Assembly: GCA_041653995.1 (NCBI GenBank)
Contig: JBAZEK010000001.1
Coordinates: 1,030,613-1,094,612 of the forward strand
Origin: Dehalococcoidia bacterium
GTDB taxonomy: Bacteria > Chloroflexota > Dehalococcoidia > GIF9 > UBA5629
Length of the DNA stretch: 64,000 nucleotides
Direction of reading: 5' to 3'
The notes beneath the pieces are model-generated. The model was not told the DNA's origin, ran no database searches, and saw only the letters and a list, made by a program, of their open reading frames with translations. Position 1 is the first letter of the stretch; every line of letters starts with the position of its first letter. Made by a program: the position numbers and the translations under genes. Positions 3,303 through 46,529 of the stretch are shown here, piece by piece.

Positions 3303-3919
3303 GACTGTTCAACGGCACTGAAACTTGCACATAATCCCTTGCTATAGATTACCAGGCATCCCAGCAGGCTTAATGCCAGCACCGCCGGCGCCACCAGCAG
3401 CCCGAGTATAAAGAAGAAAGCATCCTCGAAGCCGAACCAGACGCTGACCAGATTATGCAGGACGATGGCCAGCGCGATTGTGCTGAGACAGAGCCCGGCT
3501 GTAATCAGGCATATCCTGAGCCATCTTGCCGCTTTCTCACCCAGGCAGGGACGGACACGGTCATAGTAATAATAGCCGATGACATAGACGAAGCCCACGA
3601 CCACGAGTTGTCCGCTGATGATCAGCTCTTTGGGAGTATTCTTGAAGACATTGAACCTGAACAGCAATATCAGCACTATGCTGGCAATAAAGAAAAATAT
3701 TCCGGTCAGGCGCATTGCACCTGTGAGATTATCGCGAACCCGTTCATCGATGACGGGCATCCGGCCGTGACGGATGAGCGACCACAATTCACGATGCCCC
3801 AGCAGCAAAATACCGGCTATCAGCGCTATCACTACGTACAGGTTCTCTCTGGAAAGCATCAGCATCAATGCCAGCAAACTGACAGCGGCATAGGCTATTA
3901 GTATCCATCTTGCTTTCAC
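3299..3919 (-). CDS. membrane protein, DUF2178-like (DER motif) partner of XRE regulator
   Basis: 206 aa, multiple TM helices; cytoplasmic PVIDERVRD segment resembles the DER motif of membrane proteins that pair with small XRE regulators; 4-nt overlap with HTH gene. Confidence 0.55.
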
Positions 3920-31038: not shown

Positions 31039-31275
31039 TTACATGATGTAGGGCGTGCGGCAGCATTTAAGTGCAACACGATGAGAACATATGGTGGGCG
31101 ATACTGGATTTGAACCAGTGACCCCCTGTGTGTAAGACAGGTAAAAACCTTTAATTGACTGGAGCTTATTGATAATCTCTAGGGAAGCCTTACGTTGTCC
31201 TGAAAGAATCATGCTCAAATAGCTTTTACTGATACCTAATTCTTTGGCTAATTGACTCTGTGTTAACTTTTTCAT
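31039..31275 (-). CDS. XRE-family HTH protein whose C-terminal codons read through the tRNA-derived att repeat
   Basis: LTQSQLAKELGISKSYLSMILSGQRK HTH; last ~20 codons (GVTGSNPVSPTI) overlie the 51-bp tRNA-Val fragment. Confidence 0.55.
   Translation of the reverse strand: MKKLTQSQLAKELGISKSYLSMILSGQRKASLEIINKLQSIKGFYLSYTQGVTGSNPVSPTICSHRVALKCCRTPYIM
31092..31142. repeat. att-site direct repeat: 51-bp copy of tRNA-Val(TAC) 3' end
   Basis: TGGTGGGCGATACTGGATTTGAACCAGTGACCCCCTGTGTGTAAGACAGGT identical to 43144..43194. Confidence 0.85.
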
Positions 31276-31530
31276 TTATTTCACCCGCCTTTTTATATCC
31301 TTTAAGCCTGCGTTTCCAATTATCGGTAAATATTGGTACGACTTCTTCTGTCTTCCTTTTGCACTAAAGTTCCCCTGTGGTTTTCTCACAAAATGACAGT
31401 CTACCTCATCAATAAGCCATCTCCGTCCAATGTAGAGTGCATTAATCCGTCCCTCTGACAAAAGCTTACGAACCCGTCTCTCAGATATACCAAGCCTTTC
31501 TGCTGCCTGTGGAACCGTAAGTAGTTTCAT
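31276..31530 (-). CDS. excisionase-family (HTH_17/MerR-like) DNA-binding protein
   Basis: 84 aa; LLTVPQAAERLGISERRVRKLLSEGRINALYIGRRWLI matches excisionase/Xis HTH pattern; adjacent to attL. Confidence 0.6.
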   Translation of the reverse strand: MKLLTVPQAAERLGISERRVRKLLSEGRINALYIGRRWLIDEVDCHFVRKPQGNFSAKGRQKKSYQYLPIIGNAGLKDIKRRVK

Positions 31531-32398: not shown

Positions 32399-32579
32399 AG
32401 TAGTGCAGCACCCGTTTTAGTAGTTGGAGGTGCTGTGTAAAAATGGTATTAGACAGAAGGAAAAGGCTGATGGAGGAGGGTATGACTCGCCATGATATTT
32501 CAGGAGCCTACTTATTTAATCAATTCAAGTGAGTTGTAATAGATGGTCATACCTATTCGATGGTCTTAAGGAGGAAAAT

Positions 32580-33026
32580 ATGATTCAGGGCATAGAAAAT
32601 TATATAAATTTAACAGATACCAAGAATGAATGGGCAAAATTTCTAAATGGCTTTGAATGGCATTGGTTCTTTACTCTCACATTTGATAAAAAGGTAAGTG
32701 ATGACTTGGCATACAAGCAATTCTTTAGGTGGAAGAATTGGATAAAGAGTTCAGTAGGACACAGAATTTTCTATCTAATTATTCCTGAGCGTCCCAAGTA
32801 TAAGGGAGATAATACTCATATTCATGGATTTCTTAATGGTGTTGAAAATGAGAAACCCTACATATGGAGAAGGAAATGGGAGGCAATGGCAGGCTTTTCT
32901 CGGATTCAACCCTATGATAGTTCAAGGGGTGCAAGCTATTATCTAGCGGATAAAATTGTATTTAAAGAAGAGGATATTTATCATAGCAAAGACCTAAATA
33001 TGATAAAGATAAATACACTCAATTAA
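32580..33026 (+). CDS. putative rolling-circle replication initiator (HUH endonuclease, Rep-like)
   Basis: ATG 32580 after AAGGAGG; motif I FFTLTF, motif II (HUH) THIHGFL, candidate motif III Y-x-x-K in ASYYLADKIVFK. Confidence 0.5.
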   Translation: MIQGIENYINLTDTKNEWAKFLNGFEWHWFFTLTFDKKVSDDLAYKQFFRWKNWIKSSVGHRIFYLIIPERPKYKGDNTHIHGFLNGVENEKPYIWRRKWEAMAGFSRIQPYDSSRGASYYLADKIVFKEEDIYHSKDLNMIKINTLN

Positions 33027-34159: not shown

Positions 34160-34526
34160 ATTTATTTCCTTTCTTCCCTTTTCCGCTAAATTTAAACTAA
34201 ATATAAATATCTACAAATTATTATATTAAATCCACAACCAAATTTGAATATGAATGCCACAGATAAATGGCGGAAAAGAAAAAGAGTCTTAGAGATATTA
34301 TTATTTTGTATTATTTTCTTTAATAGTCAGATAGCAAGTGTGGCTAAGGGCAATTTTACCTTTAAAAATATTGAATCTGGTTGTCATTTGTCTAGTGCTT
34401 TAAAAATAGAAAACCTTCACGTGTGAGAAATGCCAGTAGCACGTGTATTAGAAGCGGCATTTTAAATAAAATCTTAGCCCAAAGTCATAGCAAATATAGA
34501 TTGTTGCATGCGTCCTTTTAATACGA

Positions 34527-34610
34527 TAGAATACGGTCAATGTAGTGAGGCTGGGGAGATGAAATATTTACTTGCTTGTTTCATAGCACTATTCGTTATA
34601 TCAGCCTGTG
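34527..34610 (+). repeat. 84-bp module (5' UTR + RBS + lipoprotein signal peptide MKYLLACFIALFVISAC) duplicated identically at 40435..40518
   Basis: exact identity of ATAGAATACGGTCAATGTAGTGAGGCTGGGGAGATGAAATATTTACTTGCTTGTTTCATAGCACTATTCGTTATATCAGCCTG; weaker similarity extends ~80 bp upstream. Confidence 0.8.
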
Positions 34611-36502
34611 CATCTCAAGTCCATGTTGGTGACCAAGCTCCAAACTTCACACTGACAGATATAAATGGTAAACGTATTAGTCTGCAAGATTTTCGTGGCA
34701 AGCAGGTTGTTCTTTATCTTTGGTTTTTATATTGTCCTGAATGTACAGAAGACCTTGCTGAGATTCAAGAGTTGAATAATAATAGTGACGAAAGAGTCAT
34801 TAAGTTCCTAACCATTAACCCAGAAAATTCATCAAAAGACGTTGCGGATTTTTTCACTAAAAATGGATATAGTTTCCCAGTTTTGTTTGATTTAGATGGA
34901 AGTATTTACAAGCAATATAATTTACGACCTCGGTCTGCACCCTACACAATAATTATTGCTCCTGATGGAAAGATTAACAATATTACAGTGGGGAATCTTC
35001 ATTATCAAGGTGGTTTAAAACGGTTAATTGGAGATAACGTAACATCCTTCAGTCCAAGTGCACAAACTCAAAAGACTCCAATAATTATCGTACCCAGTTT
35101 ACAATCTCATGGTGTCGATGAACTTGCTTATGTATCTAGCGAAACGAACACGAACTCTATATATGTCGTGAATGCAAACGGGGAATATATTGCTAACTCA
35201 TCTGGAAAAATGGATGCATTATACCATGTTAGTTGGTCGCCAAACGGAGATAAGATTATTTTTGAAGTGGTTAAAGATATCAATATAGACCAGAGAAATA
35301 TGACCCTTATTTCTTCGTCTGATATTTATTCTCTTGATATTAAAGACCATGAAGAGCGTAGACTTACTTCAAATTATCCGTATAGCAATTGTTCTCCCAC
35401 ATGGATTGAAGACGATAAAATCGTATTTTATTCAACAAGGGGAAGTTCGTATGGCAGTTTTTTACAAAATATATACATCATGAACGCAGACGGAAGTAAT
35501 CAGATAAATTTAACTAATTGTGCAGAGAATGTACCTATGGTATTAGAACCAATATTATCGCCTGACCACTTGTCTGCAGCATATATTACGGGTAAGTTAT
35601 TCGATGAAGATATATATGTGATAAACCTAGTGAATGGAAATAAATTTGAAATAGGCCATAATCCAACATTTGCACCCTGGACTTGGTGGTCTCCAAACAG
35701 TAAACAGATAGCGTATATATCTGCCTCTCTAAACGGGGGGCCTGAATCATTTTATCTCTACGATGTCGAAAAACAGAAACCGATAAAATACTATGATAGC
35801 CCTCAATCTTATTCTATTATGGAAATAGCATGGTCGCCAGACAGTAACAAAGTCGCTATTTTTGAAAAACCGCAGAGCTTGTATGTTTTAGATTGTCTGA
35901 GTTCCAAGTTTACAAAACTTGATGGGATATGTGACTGGGTAGTAGAGATGAAATGGATACCTAATAACCAACAAATAGCCATTATTGGTGACAGGTTTAC
36001 AAACAGAAACTTGTATGTAATTGATATTGGTGAGCAGAGTAAGCATAAAATCAATCCAGAGGGAACGGCAGTCGAGTCGTATCGATGGTCAACTGATAAT
36101 ACAAGAATCATTTATTGCTTAGATGATGGATATCTTTACACAACTTTCCTACCCAACTTAAATACCATAAAACTAATGCAACTTAATAAAAATACGATAA
36201 AAGGGTTAGCTTTGTCACCAGACGGTTTATTAATCGCTGTTGCTCTGAGTGACGATACTCTAACTGTAATTTCATTAAACAATAACAAGGTGTGCTTGTT
36301 AACTAATGATTATTACAATATTGGAGCAATTTCTTGGTCGCAAAACAGTAACATACTTGCATTTGAATACGGAACTTTATGGGATAGTCCGTTTGTATGC
36401 AGTAACATTCAAATCATCAATTTCGAAAACGAGGAACAGTTCATTAAATTAGATAAACCAATCTCAGGACGCTCTCCAATTTGGGCGAGAAAGGAAAAAT
36501 AA
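34559..36502 (+). CDS. exported lipoprotein: TlpA/ResA-like thioredoxin-fold domain (CPEC) + TolB-like beta-propeller
   Basis: lipobox ISAC; APNFTLTDINGKRISLQDFRGKQVVLYLWFLYCPEC redoxin; C-terminal repeated W-S-P-D/N-G/S blades (SWSPNGDKIIF, AWSPDSNKVAIF, RWSTDNTRIIY, ALSPDGLLIAV, SWSQNSNILAF). Confidence 0.75.
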   Translation: MKYLLACFIALFVISACASQVHVGDQAPNFTLTDINGKRISLQDFRGKQVVLYLWFLYCPECTEDLAEIQELNNNSDERVIKFLTINPENSSKDVADFFTKNGYSFPVLFDLDGSIYKQYNLRPRSAPYTIIIAPDGKINNITVGNLHYQGGLKRLIGDNVTSFSPSAQTQKTPIIIVPSLQSHGVDELAYVSSETNTNSIYVVNANGEYIANSSGKMDALYHVSWSPNGDKIIFEVVKDINIDQRNMTLISSSDIYSLDIKDHEERRLTSNYPYSNCSPTWIEDDKIVFYSTRGSSYGSFLQNIYIMNADGSNQINLTNCAENVPMVLEPILSPDHLSAAYITGKLFDEDIYVINLVNGNKFEIGHNPTFAPWTWWSPNSKQIAYISASLNGGPESFYLYDVEKQKPIKYYDSPQSYSIMEIAWSPDSNKVAIFEKPQSLYVLDCLSSKFTKLDGICDWVVEMKWIPNNQQIAIIGDRFTNRNLYVIDIGEQSKHKINPEGTAVESYRWSTDNTRIIYCLDDGYLYTTFLPNLNTIKLMQLNKNTIKGLALSPDGLLIAVALSDDTLTVISLNNNKVCLLTNDYYNIGAISWSQNSNILAFEYGTLWDSPFVCSNIQIINFENEEQFIKLDKPISGRSPIWARKEK

Positions 36503-36527
36503 GAAATTTCAAAAATGGAGACTGAAT

Positions 36528-36824
36528 ATGACTGGCGAATTGGGAAATTTTGTTATCGTCATGGGATTACCCTGTTTAGGAGCGCTGTTAATAGCTTTTT
36601 GTTCATTACCAACCGATAAATGGACAATAAAACACACTTTTATGTTGGTGGGAACTTCACTAATTTTTATTAGCTTTATTTTGCAAGCATATCAGATTAT
36701 TGATAAATACCCTGATAAAAATGAATATATATTTGGATGGTGGATTGTCGGTTTAGCTACCGTTATCATGGCTATAATAGGGCAAATTATTAGAATCAGA
36801 TACGGTAAAAGTTGGTTCCAATAG
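36528..36824 (+). CDS. small 3-TM membrane protein
   Basis: 98 aa hydrophobic ORF directly after lipoprotein gene. Confidence 0.4.
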   Translation: MTGELGNFVIVMGLPCLGALLIAFCSLPTDKWTIKHTFMLVGTSLIFISFILQAYQIIDKYPDKNEYIFGWWIVGLATVIMAIIGQIIRIRYGKSWFQ

Positions 36825-36920
36825 GATAATAAAATAGTGGGAAAGGAAAGAGAAGGAAATTTAATTAGCTATCTATATTTAAGATAAGAGTGACTTATAG
36901 AACTTCATTGAGGTTGGGAG

Positions 36921-37451
36921 ATGCAACAACAGTATCAATGCCCTAATTGTAGGTATCCAGTTGCTTATGGGAATAATTTCTGTGGACATTGTAGACAACA
37001 ACTAATCTGGCAACAATTAATGCCACCTTCACCACCAGTACACCATCAGCAAACACCACAAGGCATTATTGGGAAATCACACGAGCAAAACACTTCTGGA
37101 CAAGGTGGTCAATCAATAATACCCGATGAAAAGCGTATTAAACTTCCAAAACTCAATATTCGTTTCGACTTTGAGTTGTTTCAAGCAATTGAGGACAATG
37201 ACCGTAAACTGGCTGAACAGCTCAAAGCAAAATATGGGGATGATGTTTATAATTCCAATTTTTATAACCTGCTTAGTATCGAAGACGCTAACTCAGTAGA
37301 CTCACTTCATCTTAAACTAGTATCAGTTGAAAAAATGAATTTCAATGATATTTTATGCGAAAGTATCAAAATAGAGACTGAAAAAGTACGCAAAAGGATA
37401 GAGGAGCTTGAGAATATAAAAAATTTACGCAACGGGATTGAGGAAGTGTAA
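36921..37451 (+). CDS. zinc-ribbon (MQQQYQCPNC...CGHC) + coiled-coil protein
   Basis: 176 aa; N-terminal CPNC-x11-CGHC; member of the window-wide MQQxYxCPxC family. Confidence 0.55.
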   Translation: MQQQYQCPNCRYPVAYGNNFCGHCRQQLIWQQLMPPSPPVHHQQTPQGIIGKSHEQNTSGQGGQSIIPDEKRIKLPKLNIRFDFELFQAIEDNDRKLAEQLKAKYGDDVYNSNFYNLLSIEDANSVDSLHLKLVSVEKMNFNDILCESIKIETEKVRKRIEELENIKNLRNGIEEV

Positions 37452-37461
37452 GGAACTGACT

Positions 37462-37505
37462 AAACCCCTGAAACTGGCAGCTCGAGTAAGAAAAATGGCG
37501 GGAAA
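37462..37505 (+). repeat. ~44-bp intergenic repeat (AACCCCTGAAACTGGCAGCTCGAGTAAGAAAAATGGCGG), second copy 39411..39455
   Basis: ~90% identity; each sits between a stop codon and next start; in second copy ATGGCGG is the start of the HEPN-like gene. Confidence 0.6.
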
Positions 37506-37511
37506 GAAAAT

Positions 37512-39368
37512 TTGATTTATATGTTATGGGATGATACGTATCGTAAAGATGCAGCGGAGTATGAAATCTATCTGCGTATGCATCATAAAGAAAAAAACGA
37601 TTACGAGAAGCTTTTATCTAATCTTGAACGTGAGTGGTCAGAAAAATCAGTTAAAGAAGAAAACTACATATCGCTTAAAAAGGAATACACAGCGAAACTA
37701 CAGGAAACAAAGAAGTACATTTCAAAGCTGAAATTCCAGATTACAGCACTCATTAAAAAATGTAATAAAGACATAGATAAAATCGATAGCCAAATTGAAC
37801 AAATTAAATTGCGGCACAAAGTTGGTGAATATTCAGAGGAGAAACTCAAAGAACTATTATCACCATCTGAAACAGAAAGAAGGCAATTTGAATCCTTAAT
37901 AATCGAACTGAAACGCATACATGGCTTGAAATATATACCTAAACCAACTACCGATGATGTTGTATCAGAAACAGAACCGAGTCAGCCTAGAAGGTCTCCT
38001 ATCCCAACGTCATCTACTTCTATTTCAACAGCTGAAGAGCAAGCCCCCGAAATATCAGCACCAATGAGTTTTGAAGAACCGCCTCCTATTTTGGTACCTG
38101 CTGTATTTAAAAAGTCTTCACCTGTAAGAGTAAAGAAGAGTCTGTGGATTATGGCTTCGATTACTATGTTTGTAATATTAATTCTCTGTTTTGTTATTTG
38201 GAATATAGAAGTGCATAAAAAGGTAATCCCTCAGATTGGAGACCAAGCTCCAAACTTCTCTCTCCCAGATATGAATGGTAAAACGGTTAACCTTCAGGAC
38301 TTTCACGGAAAGGGTGTTGTTCTTTACCTTTGGGACACATCATGTCCTTACTGCAAAAATGACCTTAGCTGGATAAATGAATTAAATGGCTGCACCTATG
38401 ACGAAGCAATAATATTTTTAACTATTAATATCTCAGATTCACGTGGAACAGCTATTAAATATTTTGAGGAAAATGGATATAGTATTCCCGTTTTAAATGA
38501 TATGCGTGGGACGGTTATTAAGCAGTATGTAAAGTACACCTTAGGCCATACGTATCCAGATACTATTCTTATTGGTTCAAATGGCCAGATTCGTAATGTA
38601 AAAGTCGGGCCCTTCCAAAGCAAGACTGAATTAAAAACATTTATAGAATCAGGTTTAACCCCCCGTTGGGATAATACTCCTCCACAAATTTATGATATTA
38701 ATCTTTCTAAGGCCTCTATTTTGAGTTGGAAAACGGATGAGGAAACACATAGTAATATACAAGGGTTTCGTAATAGTGTCGGAGGTGCTGGAGTCACTCT
38801 TGGTGAAAATTGGACAAGATATCATAGCGTAAATGAAACAGTTTGCACTAATGGCTACTATGACCAAATTCAAATCAACTCGTATGACCGCTGCGGTAAT
38901 TCTGCTTCAAAAGTTTTTACACTGCCCAACTGCATAAATTTAGGTTGTAGAGCTCCTGATTTCACAGCAACTTCAACTAATAATCAGGATATAACGCTGT
39001 CCGCAGTACCTAGCAAAATGACTCTACTTCACTTCTGGCTACTCGGATGTGGTGCATGTGAAAAGGAACTTCCATTAATCCAAAAACTATATTATGAGCG
39101 TCCTAGAGAAGAACTTGAGATATTGGCTGTGAATGTTAGAGGTGACATATACAGCATAAATGACTTCGTTACTGCAAATGGTTATAGATTAATTATTTTA
39201 CTAGATACAGAAGGCATAATAGATGCCGCCTATCATAATCCAAGGTTCCCCACAACCTTTTTATTGGATTGCAATAAGGTAATTATTAACAAGCATGACG
39301 GTGCCTTTCAAAATTATGAAGAAATCGTTGATTTTGTAGGTCAGTATCCAAAACTTCCTGGTAAATAG
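37512..39368 (+). CDS. bitopic protein: cytoplasmic coiled-coil, one TM helix, two periplasmic TlpA-like thioredoxin-fold domains (CPYC, CGAC)
   Basis: 618 aa; TM SLWIMASITMFVILILCFVIW; APNFSLPDMNGKTVNLQDFHGKGVVLYLWDTSCPYC; second redoxin LLHFWLLGCGACEKEL. Confidence 0.7.
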   Translation: MIYMLWDDTYRKDAAEYEIYLRMHHKEKNDYEKLLSNLEREWSEKSVKEENYISLKKEYTAKLQETKKYISKLKFQITALIKKCNKDIDKIDSQIEQIKLRHKVGEYSEEKLKELLSPSETERRQFESLIIELKRIHGLKYIPKPTTDDVVSETEPSQPRRSPIPTSSTSISTAEEQAPEISAPMSFEEPPPILVPAVFKKSSPVRVKKSLWIMASITMFVILILCFVIWNIEVHKKVIPQIGDQAPNFSLPDMNGKTVNLQDFHGKGVVLYLWDTSCPYCKNDLSWINELNGCTYDEAIIFLTINISDSRGTAIKYFEENGYSIPVLNDMRGTVIKQYVKYTLGHTYPDTILIGSNGQIRNVKVGPFQSKTELKTFIESGLTPRWDNTPPQIYDINLSKASILSWKTDEETHSNIQGFRNSVGGAGVTLGENWTRYHSVNETVCTNGYYDQIQINSYDRCGNSASKVFTLPNCINLGCRAPDFTATSTNNQDITLSAVPSKMTLLHFWLLGCGACEKELPLIQKLYYERPREELEILAVNVRGDIYSINDFVTANGYRLIILLDTEGIIDAAYHNPRFPTTFLLDCNKVIINKHDGAFQNYEEIVDFVGQYPKLPGK

Positions 39369-39410
39369 ATAATTTCTTGATATTAAGAAATCGAGGTGTA
39401 CTGGTCTGAA

Positions 39411-39455
39411 CCCCTGAAACTGGACAGCTTGAGTAAGAAAAATGGCGGAAAAAGA
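39411..39455 (+). repeat. second copy of ~44-bp intergenic repeat
   Basis: AACCCCTGAAACTGGACAGCTTGAGTAAGAAAAATGGCGG. Confidence 0.6.
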
Positions 39456-39951
39456 AATGCAACAGGAGGAGCATCCCCTAAATATGGGGAAGCTACTTGT
39501 GAATTTCCAATCACTTGAGATAGCTCTCCGTCTATTTCTTTATAATGATGAAATTGCCTCTAGAGTTTCATCTCCTCAGGCGGTAAACCTAAATGCTATG
39601 AATGCGGGGGATATAGTAGCTGAAAATGCGTTCACAAACTATGATAGTCTAAGTCAACTCATTGATAAATATAATAACCATCCCAACATCATATCGACAG
39701 GTCTAACCATTGATAAGACTTTAGTGGACATACGTGATGCAATAGCTCATGGAAGAGTCGCTGGAGTCACTCCTTTGCTTGTGCCTCCTTTAAAACTAAT
39801 GAAGTTTGATAAACCAAAGAACAAAAGTGTGAAAGTAACATTTAGCGTTTTATTGACAAGGGAATGGTTCATTCTAGAGATGGCTAAGGTTCAAGATGCA
39901 GTTTTTAAAGTCTTTCAAGCTATCCAAATAATACAGAGTGCTAAGACATAA
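39442..39951 (+). CDS. hypothetical protein with HEPN-like R-x4-H motif
   Basis: 169 aa; IRDAIAHGR contains Rx4H; predicted all-alpha. Confidence 0.4.
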   Translation: MAEKEMQQEEHPLNMGKLLVNFQSLEIALRLFLYNDEIASRVSSPQAVNLNAMNAGDIVAENAFTNYDSLSQLIDKYNNHPNIISTGLTIDKTLVDIRDAIAHGRVAGVTPLLVPPLKLMKFDKPKNKSVKVTFSVLLTREWFILEMAKVQDAVFKVFQAIQIIQSAKT

Positions 39952-40434
39952 GTGGTGCCCTCTGAAATCGCTCTGAGGGGCTGAAATCAGGGTGTTGCAT
40001 ATTGAACATGACGGATTCCACCTGTCATTACTATTCCAGCTTAATTAGAGCCTTTAAAGTATTAAACAGTAAAGGTAATAACTCTACTTCCTTTCCCTTA
40101 AGCCCCTTTATTATTTCTTCGCCTAAGTTTCCGTTCAAGTGAATTATGTCGCTTTTAAGACCAACAAACGCTGGTACACCATAAACACGTTTACGTTCAA
40201 GCCAATTATGTCGTTTTGCATATATTATTTCCAGCTTAAATTAACTACAGAAAAATGGGGCAAAAAGAGAAAAAGGGGAATTATATATCAATTTATTGTC
40301 AATAATCTTTGAAATACTATTACTTCATCTGAGAGAGATGCCAGCAGCTAAGTGTAACGGCATTGAATTTTAAATAACTTCTCAGCCCAAAGTGGTAACG
40401 CATATAGGTCTATTGCATAAGTATTGTTCATATA

Positions 40435-40518
40435 ATAGAATACGGTCAATGTAGTGAGGCTGGGGAGATGAAATATTTACTTGCTTGTTTCATAGCACTA
40501 TTCGTTATATCAGCCTGC
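40435..40518 (+). repeat. second copy of 84-bp 5'UTR+signal-peptide module
   Basis: identical to 34527..34610. Confidence 0.8.
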
Positions 40519-42084: not shown

Positions 42085-42316
42085 TATAGACATATTTAAG
42101 AAAGTGGTGACTTATAAAACTTCATGCTGTCCTGAAAGCTGAATGACCGAGTATATCTTTGCACCATAATAAAGTTCAGCCAAGGCACCGTTAAAATGTA
42201 CTACAGAATTGTTCTAAAGGGCCAAAATGGGGTATATAATATAGGGCATGACAGATTCTTCCTGCCTGAGCTTTTCAAGCTTAATTATTGAACAAATAAC
42301 TATGAAATCCTGATTG

Positions 42317-43081
42317 CTAACGAGGTAACTGATTTGAGCCGTTCACATCTTTGTAGACTTGAAGAGCATCCTCAAAGGATAAAGATTTTGAATACCTTTC
42401 AACCATAGAAATGCTTTCCCAACCGCCTAGATTTTGCACAATACGAGTGGATAACCCAGACTTAATATTGTGAATACAAAACCCTCTTCTATAGCTATGG
42501 GCGTTGGACTTAATGCCAGTTTCTTTAGACAATCGTTTAAGCATAGTTTTAATGCCAGCTCTTGATATTTCAAAACTATCATGCTCATCAAACCACTTTC
42601 CGATAACACCATTACCAGCTAAAGCCTTACGATACTTGTTACCCTTGCCCAGAATGGTTACTGTACCTTCACCCCAGTCAAAGTCTTTAGCGTGCACATT
42701 AGCACATTCACTCAGCCTTACTCCTGAGTACCATAAGAAACTAATTAATGCTCTATCACGTTCACAATGACAATGATTTATCAGAACTTCTAATTGTTCT
42801 TTTGATACCGCAGGCAATAGCTTCTTTTGAATTTTTGGGCTAGGAACTTTGTCAATAACCTTGTCGTGAATATAGCTATTGCTGTATAGCCATGAAATGA
42901 GAGTTTTGAGAGCTTGATAGAATCTTGCTTTGCCATTATGACAGGTAAGTGATTTTAGATAAGCATTAACTCCATCTGGACTTAGGGGATAACCAATAAA
43001 ATGAGTTAAAGTATATTCGTAAAATTCAATAGTTCGCTTACTACAACCATCGGGGCGAGAAGAAATAAACTTCTCCAACAA
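42317..43081 (-). CDS. tyrosine recombinase/phage-type integrase (compact XerC/D-like)
   Basis: 254 aa; N-terminal SAM-like domain, catalytic R...HSYRRGF...LGGW...Y (R-H-R-Y); adjacent to tRNA-Val target. Confidence 0.85.
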   Translation of the reverse strand: MLEKFISSRPDGCSKRTIEFYEYTLTHFIGYPLSPDGVNAYLKSLTCHNGKARFYQALKTLISWLYSNSYIHDKVIDKVPSPKIQKKLLPAVSKEQLEVLINHCHCERDRALISFLWYSGVRLSECANVHAKDFDWGEGTVTILGKGNKYRKALAGNGVIGKWFDEHDSFEISRAGIKTMLKRLSKETGIKSNAHSYRRGFCIHNIKSGLSTRIVQNLGGWESISMVERYSKSLSFEDALQVYKDVNGSNQLPR

Positions 43082-43143: not shown

Positions 43144-43219
43144 TGGTGGGCGATACTGGATTTGAACCAGTGACCCCCTGTGTGTAAGACAGGTGCTCTA
43201 ACCGCTGAGCTAATCGCCC
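43144..43219 (-). tRNA. tRNA-Val (anticodon UAC); integration target
   Basis: rc GGGCGATTAGCTCAGCGGTTAGAGCACCTGTCTTACACACAGGGGGTCACTGGTTCAAATCCAGTATCGCCCACCA; encoded CCA. Confidence 0.9.
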
Positions 43220-44586: not shown

Positions 44587-45612
44587 ATGCAGCAATGGAT
44601 AAGATGCACCAGATGCGGCGCCAATAATGCTCCCGGACAGAAATTCTGTAACGCATGCGGTACACCCCTGCCGACCGTCTGCCCCAATTGCGGAACCCCG
44701 GCAGGTCCCGGCAGCACTTTCTGCGCCAGGTGCGGCATGACATTCAGCGGTATGCCCCAGCAGACCGGATATTACCCTCCGCAGCAGCCGGGATATCCTC
44801 AGCAACCTGGCTATCCGCAGCAACCGGCATATCCGCAACAGCCGGGCTATCCTCAGCAACCGGGCTATCCTCAGCAACCGGGCTATCCGCAACAGCCGGG
44901 ATACCCGCAACAGCCTGGATATCCGCAGCAGCCCCCCGGCTACCCGCCTCAACAGACCGGCTATTATCCTCCGCAGCAGCCGGGTTATCCTCCACAGCCG
45001 GGATATCCGCAGCAACCGCCCGGTTATCCGCCGCAGCCGGGATATCCGCAACAGCCCGGCTATCCCCAGCAACCGGGATATCCGCCGGGCTATCCTCCGC
45101 AGCAGCCGCCACGCGGAGCGTATCCGCCGGGCGCAAGGCCACCCCAGCAAGGCGGCGGCAAAGGCATGCTCATATTGCTGCTGGTTGTTCTGATTGCCGG
45201 CCTGGCAGGCTTCGGTTACTGGGCTTACAGCCAGGGCTACCTCAAGGGCATACTTAACTTCGGCAGCGATAACACCACCACCTCCACAGGGAAACAGAAG
45301 GACACTGTGCCGCCCACCATCAGCGGCGTAGAAGTTAGCGCCAAGGCCATAAACGAAGTCGGCATTATCTGGAAGACGGACAAGCCATCCAGTTCTCAGG
45401 TGGAATGGGGTCCCAAGGGATCGTTCGGCAACAAGACGACACTACAGGATGACCCCGTGAGCGGTACCAGCATCGGTGTCACCGATCACGGGGTTATCGT
45501 CAAGGGATTAACGGCAAATACTGAATACCAGTACCGTGTGTTATCACATACCGACGGCAACGTTGACGCCGTATCCGCCACCAATACTTTCACGACACCT
45601 TCGGCAGATTAA
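44587..45612 (+). CDS. double zinc-ribbon – PQ-rich (PGYPQQ x ~20) – TM – Fn3-like domain protein
   Basis: 341 aa; [44 protein letters not shown]; [23 protein letters not shown]; C-terminal [17 protein letters not shown]...TEYQYRV purple-acid-phosphatase-N/Fn3-like. Confidence 0.65.
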
Positions 45613-45644
45613 CCCTCCTTTTCGCTGCGTTTACAGATTTTCTA

Positions 45645-46529
45645 ATGTATCAATCAACAGTACCCTGCCCTAAATGCGGCGCGCAGAACCTGCGGGGACA
45701 GTGGGTATGCGCGTACTGCGGAAATACGCTTGTCGTTTATTGTCCATCCTGCCATACCGGCAACGCCATCGACAGCCAGTATTGCCACGCCTGCCATGCA
45801 GTTCTCGCGTATACCGGCGTTCCGCCGGCTCAACCACAGTATCAACCCCAACCCCAGCAGCCTCAACCATATCCGCAGTACCCGCAATATCCTCCCGGGC
45901 AAACTGACCAGGGCCAGTACCCTCCGCAGTATCCACCCTACCCTCCACCCGGTTATCCACCACAGCAACCACCCTACCCGGACTACCAGGCCGGATACGG
46001 CCAGCCCGGCGATTATAAACCATACTCGGTTCACGGCGGCGAAGCCTACGCCGGAGGCGGGCTGGACGGCCTGATCGACAGGCTCAAAGAGTTCGTGCGC
46101 AATACCAATCCCATTCTCCTCTCTTCGCTGGTGGTGCTGGTAGTCGGTCTGACCATCTTCCTCATCCTGGCCTTCCAGTTCGGCTGGATCAAGACGGGTT
46201 CGGCGCCCAAAGTAGAAACAGTTAAAGATACCACAGCTCCTGTGATAACTTATTTAACTTATGAGCCCGGTGAAAATAGAAGCATTATAATAATTTGGGC
46301 AACCAATGAGCCAGCAAGTACGCGGGTCGAGTGGGGTATCGCACCTGTTTTCAACCAATTCACACTTATAGAAAACGATCCCCAAGTTGGCCAAGGTACA
46401 CTTTCACATAGGGTAACATTGACTAACCTGCTACCAAACACCAGCTATATTTACCGCGCAATATCATATGACAAAGCAGGGAACAAATGCATGAGTCCTA
46501 CTATGCCATTCCAAACTACGAACTACTAG
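45645..46529 (+). CDS. paralogous double zinc-ribbon – PQY-rich – TM – Fn3-like protein
   Basis: 294 aa; CPKCGAQNLRGQWVCAYCGNTLVVYCPSCHTGNAIDSQYCHAC; same architecture as upstream gene. Confidence 0.65.
   Translation: MYQSTVPCPKCGAQNLRGQWVCAYCGNTLVVYCPSCHTGNAIDSQYCHACHAVLAYTGVPPAQPQYQPQPQQPQPYPQYPQYPPGQTDQGQYPPQYPPYPPPGYPPQQPPYPDYQAGYGQPGDYKPYSVHGGEAYAGGGLDGLIDRLKEFVRNTNPILLSSLVVLVVGLTIFLILAFQFGWIKTGSAPKVETVKDTTAPVITYLTYEPGENRSIIIIWATNEPASTRVEWGIAPVFNQFTLIENDPQVGQGTLSHRVTLTNLLPNTSYIYRAISYDKAGNKCMSPTMPFQTTNY

What the first reader, a model, noticed from the sequence alone, without database searches (positions are those of the whole stretch)
37462..39455. Second repeated junction module (~44 bp) between island genes, one copy supplying the start codon of a HEPN-motif protein
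AACCCCTGAAACTGG(C/A)CAGCT(C/T)GAGTAAGAAAAATGGCGG occurs after the stop of 36921..37451 and again after the stop of 37512..39368. In the second copy ATGGCGG is the start of 39442..39951, which carries an R-x4-H HEPN-like motif (IRDAIAHGR). In the first copy the same ATG opens only a 6-codon mini-ORF. Together with the 84-bp leader duplication, this points to modular cassette shuffling inside the element. A HEPN protein on a mobile element may be a toxin or abortive-infection component.
Basis: seen in the sequence. Interest (0 to 1): 0.5.

Follow-up and report, generated by a model that had tools for sequence, protein, structure and literature searches.

The report
Duplicated spacer upstream of HEPN gene
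A ~57-base spacer is present twice between neighbouring genes of a mobile island inserted in a tRNA-Val gene; the gene after the second copy encodes a small, partner-less HEPN-type (probable RNase) protein, but the spacer most likely supplies only a weak ribosome-binding region, not the start codon, so the finding is real but fairly ordinary.

Summary
The repeat is real. Blocks 37455-37508 and 39400-39456 align at 50 of 57 columns, with 3 one-base gaps. No shuffle comes close.

Both copies are intercistronic spacers in a same-strand gene array. The array sits on a 35% GC island bounded by a 48-nt tRNA-Val repeat, with a tyrosine recombinase at one end.

Neither copy folds, and neither scores as a promoter or terminator. 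The 3' half is one of 6-7 copies of an island-specific 18-nt purine-rich motif, which I call the P-box (AAATGGCGGAAAAAGAAA).

No conserved neighbour exists, so there is no MNT antitoxin.

Homologue N-termini align to ATG 39457, not to the repeat's ATG at 39442. The closest relatives carry a TATAAT box 7 nt before that ATG, which implies leaderless transcripts.

My reading is that the module is a recombination-duplicated linker. Its GGCGG lies 8-10 nt before each downstream start.

The "cassette shuffling" idea is partly supported by a related element (L061). The toxin role is untested.

The parts
37455..37508 (+). Module copy 1. It fills the spacer between the zinc-ribbon gene (stop at 37451) and the 618-aa redoxin gene (TTG 37512 or ATG 37521).
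   Evidence: 50 of 57 columns identical to copy 2. As RNA it folds less well than shuffles (z +2.1). No promoter or terminator was scored here.
39400..39456 (+). Module copy 2. It forms the 3' part of the spacer between the 618-aa gene (stop at 39368) and the HEPN-like gene.
   Evidence: RNA fold z +0.76. Nucleotide homology to the L061 orthologue begins only at 39450, so the module lies outside the conserved gene block.
37493..37510 (+). P-box inside copy 1 (AAATGGCGGGAAAGAAAA). Its GGCGG(G) lies 9-10 nt before TTG 37512.
   Evidence: 6 copies in the island at up to 3 mismatches, against 0.05 expected. SD:anti-SD -5.3 kcal/mol, against -6.4 to -12.9 for other island genes.
39440..39457 (+). 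P-box inside copy 2 (AAATGGCGGAAAAAGAAA). Its GGCGG lies 8 nt before ATG 39457.
   Evidence: -4.8 kcal/mol for ATG 39457; -3.0 for ATG 39442.
39457..39951 (+). HEPN-like gene at its best-supported start (164 aa). The open frame also contains ATG 39442 (169 aa) and ATG 39484 (155 aa).
37512..39368 (+). 618-aa protein: coiled-coil N-terminal region, TM segment and two AhpC/TSA-ResA-like redoxin domains. This is the gene flanked by the two module copies.
   Evidence: The N-terminal 237 aa has no detectable homologue. Its redoxin domain is a 70% nt paralogue of 34626-34777.
36921..37451 (+). 176-aa protein with an N-terminal zinc ribbon (sub-threshold DZR matches), upstream of copy 1.
   Evidence: DZR families E about 1e-3, 16-20 bits, all below cut-off. 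A remnant of its start is present in L061 at 3758-3788.
31095..31142 (.). Left att repeat of the island: a 48-nt copy of the 3' end of tRNA-Val(tac).
   Evidence: identical to 43147-43194.
43147..43194 (.). Right att repeat, inside the intact tRNA-Val(tac) gene (43144-43219, minus strand).
42317..43081 (-). Island tyrosine recombinase (XerA-like, 254 aa).
   Evidence: (PF00589, 3.3e-21). Homologues are named in Chloroflexota and Dehalococcoidia MAGs.
42094..42177 (+). Full copy of a second junction segment, which I call 'M' (..GGTGACTTATAAAACTTCAT..CCTGAAAGCTGAATGACC..). In the related element L061 this segment flanks the HEPN gene on both sides.
   Evidence: 75-79% identity to L061 2776-2827 and 3331-3405, E 1e-5 to 1e-10.
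36868..36908 (+). Left half of the same 'M' segment, directly upstream of the zinc-ribbon gene.
   Evidence: (family D12, 85% to 42092-42125).

Best explanation
The two copies are one intercistronic linker that was duplicated by recombination inside a mosaic integrative element, probably in a Chloroflexota host. They separate three consecutive genes (zinc-ribbon protein, double-redoxin membrane protein, HEPN-like protein). These are the last three of a five-gene same-strand array running from about 34559 to 39951.

The linker is unstructured and purine-rich, with no promoter, terminator or hairpin. In both copies its 3' end places a weak Shine-Dalgarno-like GGCGG in an A-rich context 8-10 nt before the start codon of the next gene (TTG 37512 and ATG 39457). 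It most likely acts as a shared, weak translation-initiation region for two genes that lack the GGAGG-type sites of the other island genes.

For the HEPN gene this linker replaces the TATAAT-7 nt-ATG leaderless promoter that the closest relatives carry. The ATG inside the repeat is part of the motif and is probably not the start.

The downstream protein is a standalone HEPN-fold protein with an intact Rx4H catalytic motif. It is probably an RNase that acts without a genetically linked antitoxin.

Shown: the repeat, its lack of structure, its geometry relative to the starts, the family N-terminus, the fold and motif, and the absence of a partner. Inferred: RBS function, co-transcription, origin by duplication, and RNase activity.
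For: - Repeat.
- Island context.
- No structure: both copies fold worse than shuffles on both strands. No consensus promoter or terminator lies in either spacer. No Rfam family matches at gathering score.
- Start sites: GGCGG lies 8-10 nt before TTG 37512 and ATG 39457. The SD:anti-SD energies there are -5.3 and -4.8 kcal/mol, against -6.4 to -12.9 for the likely starts of the other plus-strand island genes.
- Family N-termini align to Met6.
- TATAAT ends exactly 7 nt before the ATG in 14 of 99 non-redundant upstream regions. That is a sharp peak against 0-4 at any other offset. It includes most relatives at 50% identity or more.
- Homology to the L061 orthologue starts 7 nt before ATG 39457.
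- No neighbour family is shared by more than 11 of 147 loci.
Against: - GGCGG is a poor anti-SD match, and the other five P-box copies are not followed by a start codon. RBS function therefore cannot be the motif's general role.
- Which start codon is used cannot be decided from sequence. ATG 39442 is in frame and keeps the full protein.
- Co-transcription is inferred only from short gaps and the lack of consensus signals.
- Only identical copies of this island were found (L001, L227). No 'single-module' ancestor is documented.
Confidence: 0.5

Rival explanations
1. The functional unit is the 18-nt P-box. It would be a protein-binding site, either iterons or an origin arm for the island's HUH Rep (32529..33026), or an operator for its XRE or excisionase regulators. 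Under this reading the two module copies are just two of at least 7 such sites.
For: There are 6 copies at up to 3 mismatches, against 0.05 expected, and all lie in non-coding DNA. The motif is almost absent from 2 Mb of other loci. A variant is conserved in the related element L061. There, two inverted copies form a 15-bp stem around an AT-rich loop, with DNA fold z -2.8. One copy lies upstream of the excisionase promoter region. Rep carries HUH-type motifs (FFTLTF, HIH, YYLADK) by my reading of the translation, and has a near-threshold Pfam hit.
Against: The motif is not palindromic. Sites are scattered over 9 kb rather than clustered. The window's own inverted pair does not fold significantly (z -0.9). 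No binding data exist. This reading does not explain why the 5' 35 nt of the module are also duplicated.
Confidence: 0.22
2. The module is a site-specific recombination site (attC-like or secondary att) used by the island recombinase to capture single-gene cassettes. The 618-aa gene would have been inserted as a circle, duplicating the site.
For: Direct repeats flank exactly one gene. In L061 the HEPN gene is likewise flanked by direct repeats of another junction segment. The module's 5' part gives a weak match to the tRNA-Val att repeat (score 11; 27 of 2000 shuffles).
Against: There is no inverted-repeat or hairpin anatomy. The recombinase is a short XerA-like enzyme well below the integron-integrase cut-offs. 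The att similarity is not exceptional, because a coding segment at about 38550 scores higher. Homologous or illegitimate recombination would produce the same picture.
Confidence: 0.07
3. The copies are neutral scars of accretion and rearrangement of related elements and have no function of their own.
For: The island looks composite. Segment 39990-40047, after the HEPN gene, is 71% identical to 42230-42287, next to the integrase. A promoter/leader block with signal peptide is also duplicated, 34459-34608 against 40367-40517. The modules have no detectable signal.
Against: Both copies keep the same distance to the next start codon, and they are the only upstream sequence available to load ribosomes. 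The P-box part belongs to a strongly over-represented motif.
Confidence: 0.15
4. The repeats are RNA processing sites or antitoxic RNA for the HEPN RNase, by analogy with type III toxin-antitoxin systems.
For: An RNase-type gene follows a repeated non-coding unit. There is no protein antitoxin.
Against: The repeats are 1.9 kb apart, not tandem. They are unstructured. Other family members lack them entirely and carry their own leaderless promoter.
Confidence: 0.03

Closest known systems
HEPN superfamily, nearest Pfam family RiboL-PSP-HEPN (PF18735; Anantharaman et al. 2013, PMC3710099)
   Same: [quoted passage not shown] Twenty of 34 members give weak hits to PF18735 over the motif helix.
   Different: No member reaches the gathering score (best 25.1 against 28.4 bits). 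There is no L-PSP fusion and no ParB neighbour. A three-stranded beta insert (residues 105-138) follows the motif. The paper describes a beta-hairpin insert immediately after the motif only for the Csx1 family.
HepS, the single-protein HEPN abortive-infection system of prophage Gifsy-1 (PMC13043305)
   Different: There is no detectable sequence relationship. The trigger, the tRNA-anticodon target and the defence phenotype are unknown here. Most family members are not obviously on mobile elements.
HEPN-MNT type II/VII toxin-antitoxin pairs
   Different: There is no adjacent MNT, or any other conserved neighbour, in 147 loci.
Conserved boundary/linker sequences and 'moron' insertions in mosaic phage and island genomes (from my own knowledge)
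   Same: Short conserved non-coding segments at gene junctions are reused between related elements and flank single inserted genes.
   Different: Here the duplicated linker carries no promoter or terminator, unlike classical morons.
Integron attC sites
   Same: Both are repeats that follow successive single genes.
   Different: There is no imperfect palindrome or hairpin and there are no R''/R' core sites (my own inspection). There is no integron integrase.

Membership tests
HEPN superfamily | Conserved Rx4-6H motif | tested here: met
   R98 and H103 are invariant in 34 aligned members, followed by invariant G104 and R105.
HEPN superfamily | Four-helix up-down bundle with the motif at the end of helix 3, before the loop to helix 4 | tested here: met
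HEPN superfamily | Metal-independent RNase activity | not testable with these tools
   This needs a biochemical assay.
Pfam PF18735 HEPN_RiboL-PSP | Score at or above the gathering threshold (28.4 bits) | tested here: not met
   The window protein scores 13.3 bits. The best family member scores 25.1 bits and covers only profile positions 134-181.
HEPN-MNT toxin-antitoxin | Adjacent minimal nucleotidyltransferase (or any conserved partner gene) | tested here: not met
   Neighbouring ORFs within 1.5 kb were clustered across 147 loci. The largest shared family covers 11 loci and is a housekeeping-type gene. No PADLOC hit was found.
tRNA-integrated genomic island / integrative element | Direct repeat of the tRNA 3' end at both borders, a tyrosine recombinase next to the tRNA, and atypical composition | tested here: met
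   The 48-nt repeats are identical. The integrase is at 42317..43081. An excisionase is present. GC is 35% against 54% for the host.
Integron attC site | Imperfect inverted repeat that folds as a hairpin, plus an integron integrase | tested here: not met
   Fold z-scores are +0.8 to +2.1 on both strands. The recombinase scores 53 bits against a 265-bit cut-off for the integron integrase model.
Intrinsic terminator or sigma-70 promoter | GC-rich hairpin plus T-run, or -35/-10 hexamers | tested here: not met
   Nothing was scored in 37452-37511 or 39369-39456 on the plus strand.
Known RNA families (Rfam) | Covariance-model match at gathering score | tested here: not met
   Only tRNAs pass. There is one chance-level hit at 37449-37492 on the minus strand to a plastid group II domain-5 model (21 bits against 65.5, E 1.5).
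Type III toxin-antitoxin (ToxIN-like) | Tandem array of short repeats directly upstream of the RNase gene | tested here: not met
   There are two copies 1.9 kb apart with a protein gene between them.

The most novel reading that the evidence does not exclude
The P-box-containing modules and the 'M' junction segments could be the cis-acting parts of an undescribed gene-joining or replication-control system in a family of small HUH-Rep/XerA-type integrative elements of Chloroflexota. Examples would be Rep- or recombinase-bound sites at which single cargo genes are captured. The partner-less, normally leaderless HEPN protein would then be a self-contained sensor-effector RNase spread by such elements.
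Probability: 0.08. Interest if true: 0.6.

Novelty: new member of a known kind. Interest (0 to 1): 0.3.

Why it matters
The practical gain is modest.
- It corrects the gene model of the HEPN gene: the start is ATG 39457, giving 164 aa.
- It shows that a normally leaderless, self-promoted gene has been wired into an operon on a mobile island through a reused linker.
- It defines a compact family of about 970 clusters of standalone HEPN-fold proteins with an intact catalytic motif, no Pfam home and no antitoxin partner. After the HepS work, such solitary HEPN proteins are plausible one-gene defence or stress nucleases and are worth testing.
- The island-specific P-box motif is a clean, testable candidate for a Rep or regulator binding site.

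Tried and rejected
- **Module elsewhere.** I searched for it in 59 genome loci and 80 metagenome loci around HEPN homologues, in four loci around the closest integrase homologues, and in IMG/VR. Apart from two contigs that duplicate the window's own island (L001, L227), only the L061-L063 group shares non-coding segments. For the module itself the match is marginal: score 12, 15 of 2000 shuffles.
- **IMG/VR matches.** Exact hits to CCTGAAAGCTRAATGAC lie in coding sequence (five read ...RHRSFSFQE..., which I take to be ThyX; the other three are unrelated contexts). The 66 hits to AACCCCTGAAACTGG show no wider similarity. Both sets are chance matches.
- **Module as a decayed att or tRNA-Val remnant.** The similarity scores 11, but a coding segment scores 12, so it is not distinguishable from chance.
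- **Junction segment 42094-42177 as a gene remnant.** No tblastn support was found from neighbours of related integrases.
- **RNA structure, terminator, promoter, Rfam.** All negative.
- **Other island variants.** P0001's contig and the Logan contig are the same island, with no single-module variant.
- **Homologues of the 618-aa N-terminal region, and viral-contig relatives of the 618-aa, zinc-ribbon and Rep proteins.** None were found.
- **tRNA proximity of the HEPN family as a whole.** Eight of 147 loci have a tRNA within 1 kb, which is about the background rate.
- **afdb50 fold library.** It was unavailable.

Full report
**Setting**

The window is about 54% GC, but 31.1-43.2 kb is about 35% GC. 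This block is bounded by two identical 48-nt repeats, at 31095-31142 and 43147-43194. The right-hand repeat is the 3' part of an intact tRNA-Val(tac) gene on the minus strand.

A 254-aa XerA-like tyrosine recombinase lies next to that tRNA (42317..43081, minus strand). The other end of the block carries:
- an excisionase-family gene (31276..31530, minus strand);
- XRE-type HTH genes;
- a small Rep, likely HUH-type (32529..33026; near-threshold Pfam hit, HUH motifs by my reading of the translation);
- a Cas4-like nuclease (sub-threshold matches).

Homologues of the recombinase are named in Chloroflexota and Dehalococcoidia MAGs. The host is therefore probably a Chloroflexota bacterium, though this is an inference. 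The region is an integrative mobile element.

**The observation**

The two copies are real. A local alignment pairs 37455-37508 with 39400-39456. It has 50 identical columns of 57, four mismatches and three one-base gaps. The score is 40, against a maximum of 16 in 2000 shuffles.

The core 13-mer occurs nowhere else in the window. The 6-codon mini-ORF of copy 1 and the IRDAIAHGR motif are as described.

**What the module is not**

- As RNA, both copies fold worse than dinucleotide shuffles on either strand (z +0.8 to +2.1).
- No consensus promoter or terminator is scored in either spacer.
- No Rfam family matches beyond a chance-level hit.
- There is no inverted-repeat anatomy of the kind found in attC or core recombination sites.
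- Its weak resemblance to the tRNA-Val att repeat is matched or beaten by a random coding segment of the island.

**What the module contains**

Its 3' 18 nt (AAATGGCGGAAAAAGAAA) belong to a motif I call the P-box. The island holds six copies at up to 3 mismatches, or seven at up to 4. First-order Markov shuffles give 0.05 and 0.4 respectively. All copies are non-coding: 31606(-), 33861, 34265, 36832, 37493, 39440 and 40253.

The motif is nearly absent from 2 Mb of other fetched loci. A variant is conserved in the one related element I found, L061. There, two inverted copies form a 15-bp stem around an AT-rich loop.

**Geometry relative to the downstream genes**

In both module copies the P-box places GGCGG 8-10 nt before the start codon of the next gene (TTG 37512 and ATG 39457). 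Those two genes have the weakest SD:anti-SD pairing of the plus-strand gene array, at -5.3 and -4.8 kcal/mol. The likely starts of the other genes in that array score -6.4 to -12.9.

The genes from about 34559 to 39951 are on one strand. The gaps between them are 25-96 nt. I therefore infer a single operon whose last gene is the HEPN gene.

**The start codon**

Thirty-odd homologues begin M-(E/K)-Q-(E/D)-(E/Q)-H-P-L-N, aligned to Met6 of the 169-aa ORF, which is ATG 39457.
- The 82%-identical orthologue in L061 has an in-frame stop three codons before that ATG.
- Nucleotide homology between the two genes begins only 7 nt upstream of ATG 39457.
- In the closest relatives the ATG is preceded by TTGnnn-17 nt-TATAAT-7 nt. 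Across 99 non-redundant upstream regions, a strong -10 box ends exactly 7 nt before the ATG in 14 cases, against 0-4 at any other offset.

This is the signature of leaderless transcripts. In the window that promoter is gone and the module stands in its place. The repeat's ATG at 39442 is part of the P-box; five other copies also carry an ATG. It is probably not the start, although sequence alone cannot exclude it.

**The protein**

The family has 968 representatives of 50%-identity clusters at E up to 1e-3. Almost all are standalone proteins of about 150-175 aa.

R98, H103, G104, R105, E26, R30 and D68 are invariant. The AlphaFold model is confident (pLDDT 90.3). It puts R-x4-H at the end of the helix before the last helix, the position described for HEPN domains. 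A three-stranded beta insert follows the motif.

The support remains at remote-homology level:
- Foldseek against PDB finds nothing.
- The best Pfam score in the family is 25.1 bits against a threshold of 28.4 for RiboL-PSP-HEPN, and it covers only the motif helix.
- PADLOC, PHROGs and NCBIfam give nothing.

I accept 'HEPN fold with intact catalytic motif' at about 0.8. I do not file the protein under any named HEPN family.

**Partner genes**

I clustered all ORFs within 1.5 kb of the gene across 147 loci. No family is shared by more than 11 loci. There is no MNT or other conserved neighbour.

The gene contexts are diverse. Some close relatives sit next to tRNA genes or att fragments (L069, L070, L064, L092). 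L070 is a different small island in the same tRNA-Val locus. Family-wide, however, tRNA proximity is at the background rate. A toxin or defence role is plausible by analogy with the solitary HEPN protein HepS, but it is untested.

**Mosaicism**

The island looks composite. Segment 39990-40047, after the HEPN gene, resembles 42230-42287, next to the integrase (71%). A promoter-like leader plus lipoprotein signal peptide is duplicated at 34459-34608 and 40367-40517.

A second junction segment, which I call 'M', occurs at 36868-36908 (left half only) and 42094-42177 (full). In L061 it flanks the HEPN gene on both sides.

This supports reuse of short non-coding junctions by recombination. The module under review has only a marginal relative at the equivalent place in L061 (15 of 2000 shuffles). 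All other copies of the island that I found are identical. The duplication event itself is therefore inferred, not documented.

**Verdict**

The repeat is real, but its biology is ordinary. It is a duplicated, unstructured linker that probably serves as a weak translation-initiation region in an operon on a mosaic island.

The HEPN call is supported, the start-codon claim is not, and the toxin role is open. The P-box motif is the least explained feature, and it is the main route by which something more interesting could emerge.

Noticed in passing
window 31606(-), 33861, 34265, 36832, 37493, 39440, 40253; L061 3499-3567: An island-specific 18-nt purine-rich motif (P-box, AAATGGCGGAAAAAGAAA) is about 100-fold over-represented and always non-coding. 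Inverted pairs flank an AT-rich core (AAATATAAATATCTA) at 34162-34283 and in L061. It could be the origin or iterons of the island's small HUH Rep, or an operator.
   Followed up: partly
window 34504-34561 and 40413-40470; L061 ~1290-1330 and ~3700-3760: A conserved promoter-like block (TTGCAT-17 nt-TAGAAT) followed by GAGGCTGGGGAG-ATG precedes both redoxin lipoprotein genes. Their real starts are ATG 34559 and ATG 40468 (MKYLLACFIALFVISAC, lipobox). The listed 664-aa ORF is therefore 17 codons too long, and the ENA gene call agrees. Upstream lies a stem with a possible compensatory change between elements (ATGCC..GGCAT versus ATACC..GGTAT).
   Followed up: partly
window 39990-40047 vs 42230-42287: The segment after the HEPN gene resembles the segment just downstream of the integrase stop (71%). 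This suggests the island arose by accretion of at least two related elements, the first having lost its integrase.
   Followed up: partly
window 36868-36908, 42094-42177; L061 2776-2827, 3331-3405, 4826-4855: A second junction segment ('M': GGTGACTTATAAAACTTCAT..CCTGAAAGCTGAATGACC..GTATATCT) is shared with L061, where it brackets the HEPN gene as direct repeats. Its function is unknown, and only the L061 3331-3405 copy folds significantly (z -2.4).
   Followed up: partly
window 36921-39368: The zinc-ribbon gene and the 618-aa redoxin gene are in the same reading frame, separated only by TAA GGA ACT GAC TAA plus the open module sequence. This is probably coincidence. However, a zinc ribbon-linker-TM-ectodomain layout would form a single plausible protein.
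   Followed up: no
window 37512-38222 (residues 1-237 of the 618-aa protein): The coiled-coil and proline/serine-rich N-terminal region has no detectable homologue in the 5.8-billion-protein collection.
   Followed up: yes
L070 4715-8724; L069 3228-3951: Related genomes carry different content at the same tRNA cluster (Val-tac, Arg-gcg, Leu-cag). L070 has a 3.9-kb island with the HEPN gene as the first gene after the att fragment. L069 has the HEPN gene directly beside tRNA-Arg, with no integrase and no tRNA-Val between them.
   Followed up: partly
P0244 (289 aa): A few family members carry N-terminal extensions, and one is a DUF6941-HEPN fusion. This may hint at a sensor domain.
   Followed up: no
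window 44587-46100: Host genes just outside the island encode long tandem PQQPGYP-type repeats with an 18-nt period.
   Followed up: no
window 37449-37492 (-): There is a chance-level Rfam hit to a plastid group II intron domain-5 model (21 bits, E 1.5). No intron features are present nearby.
   Followed up: yes
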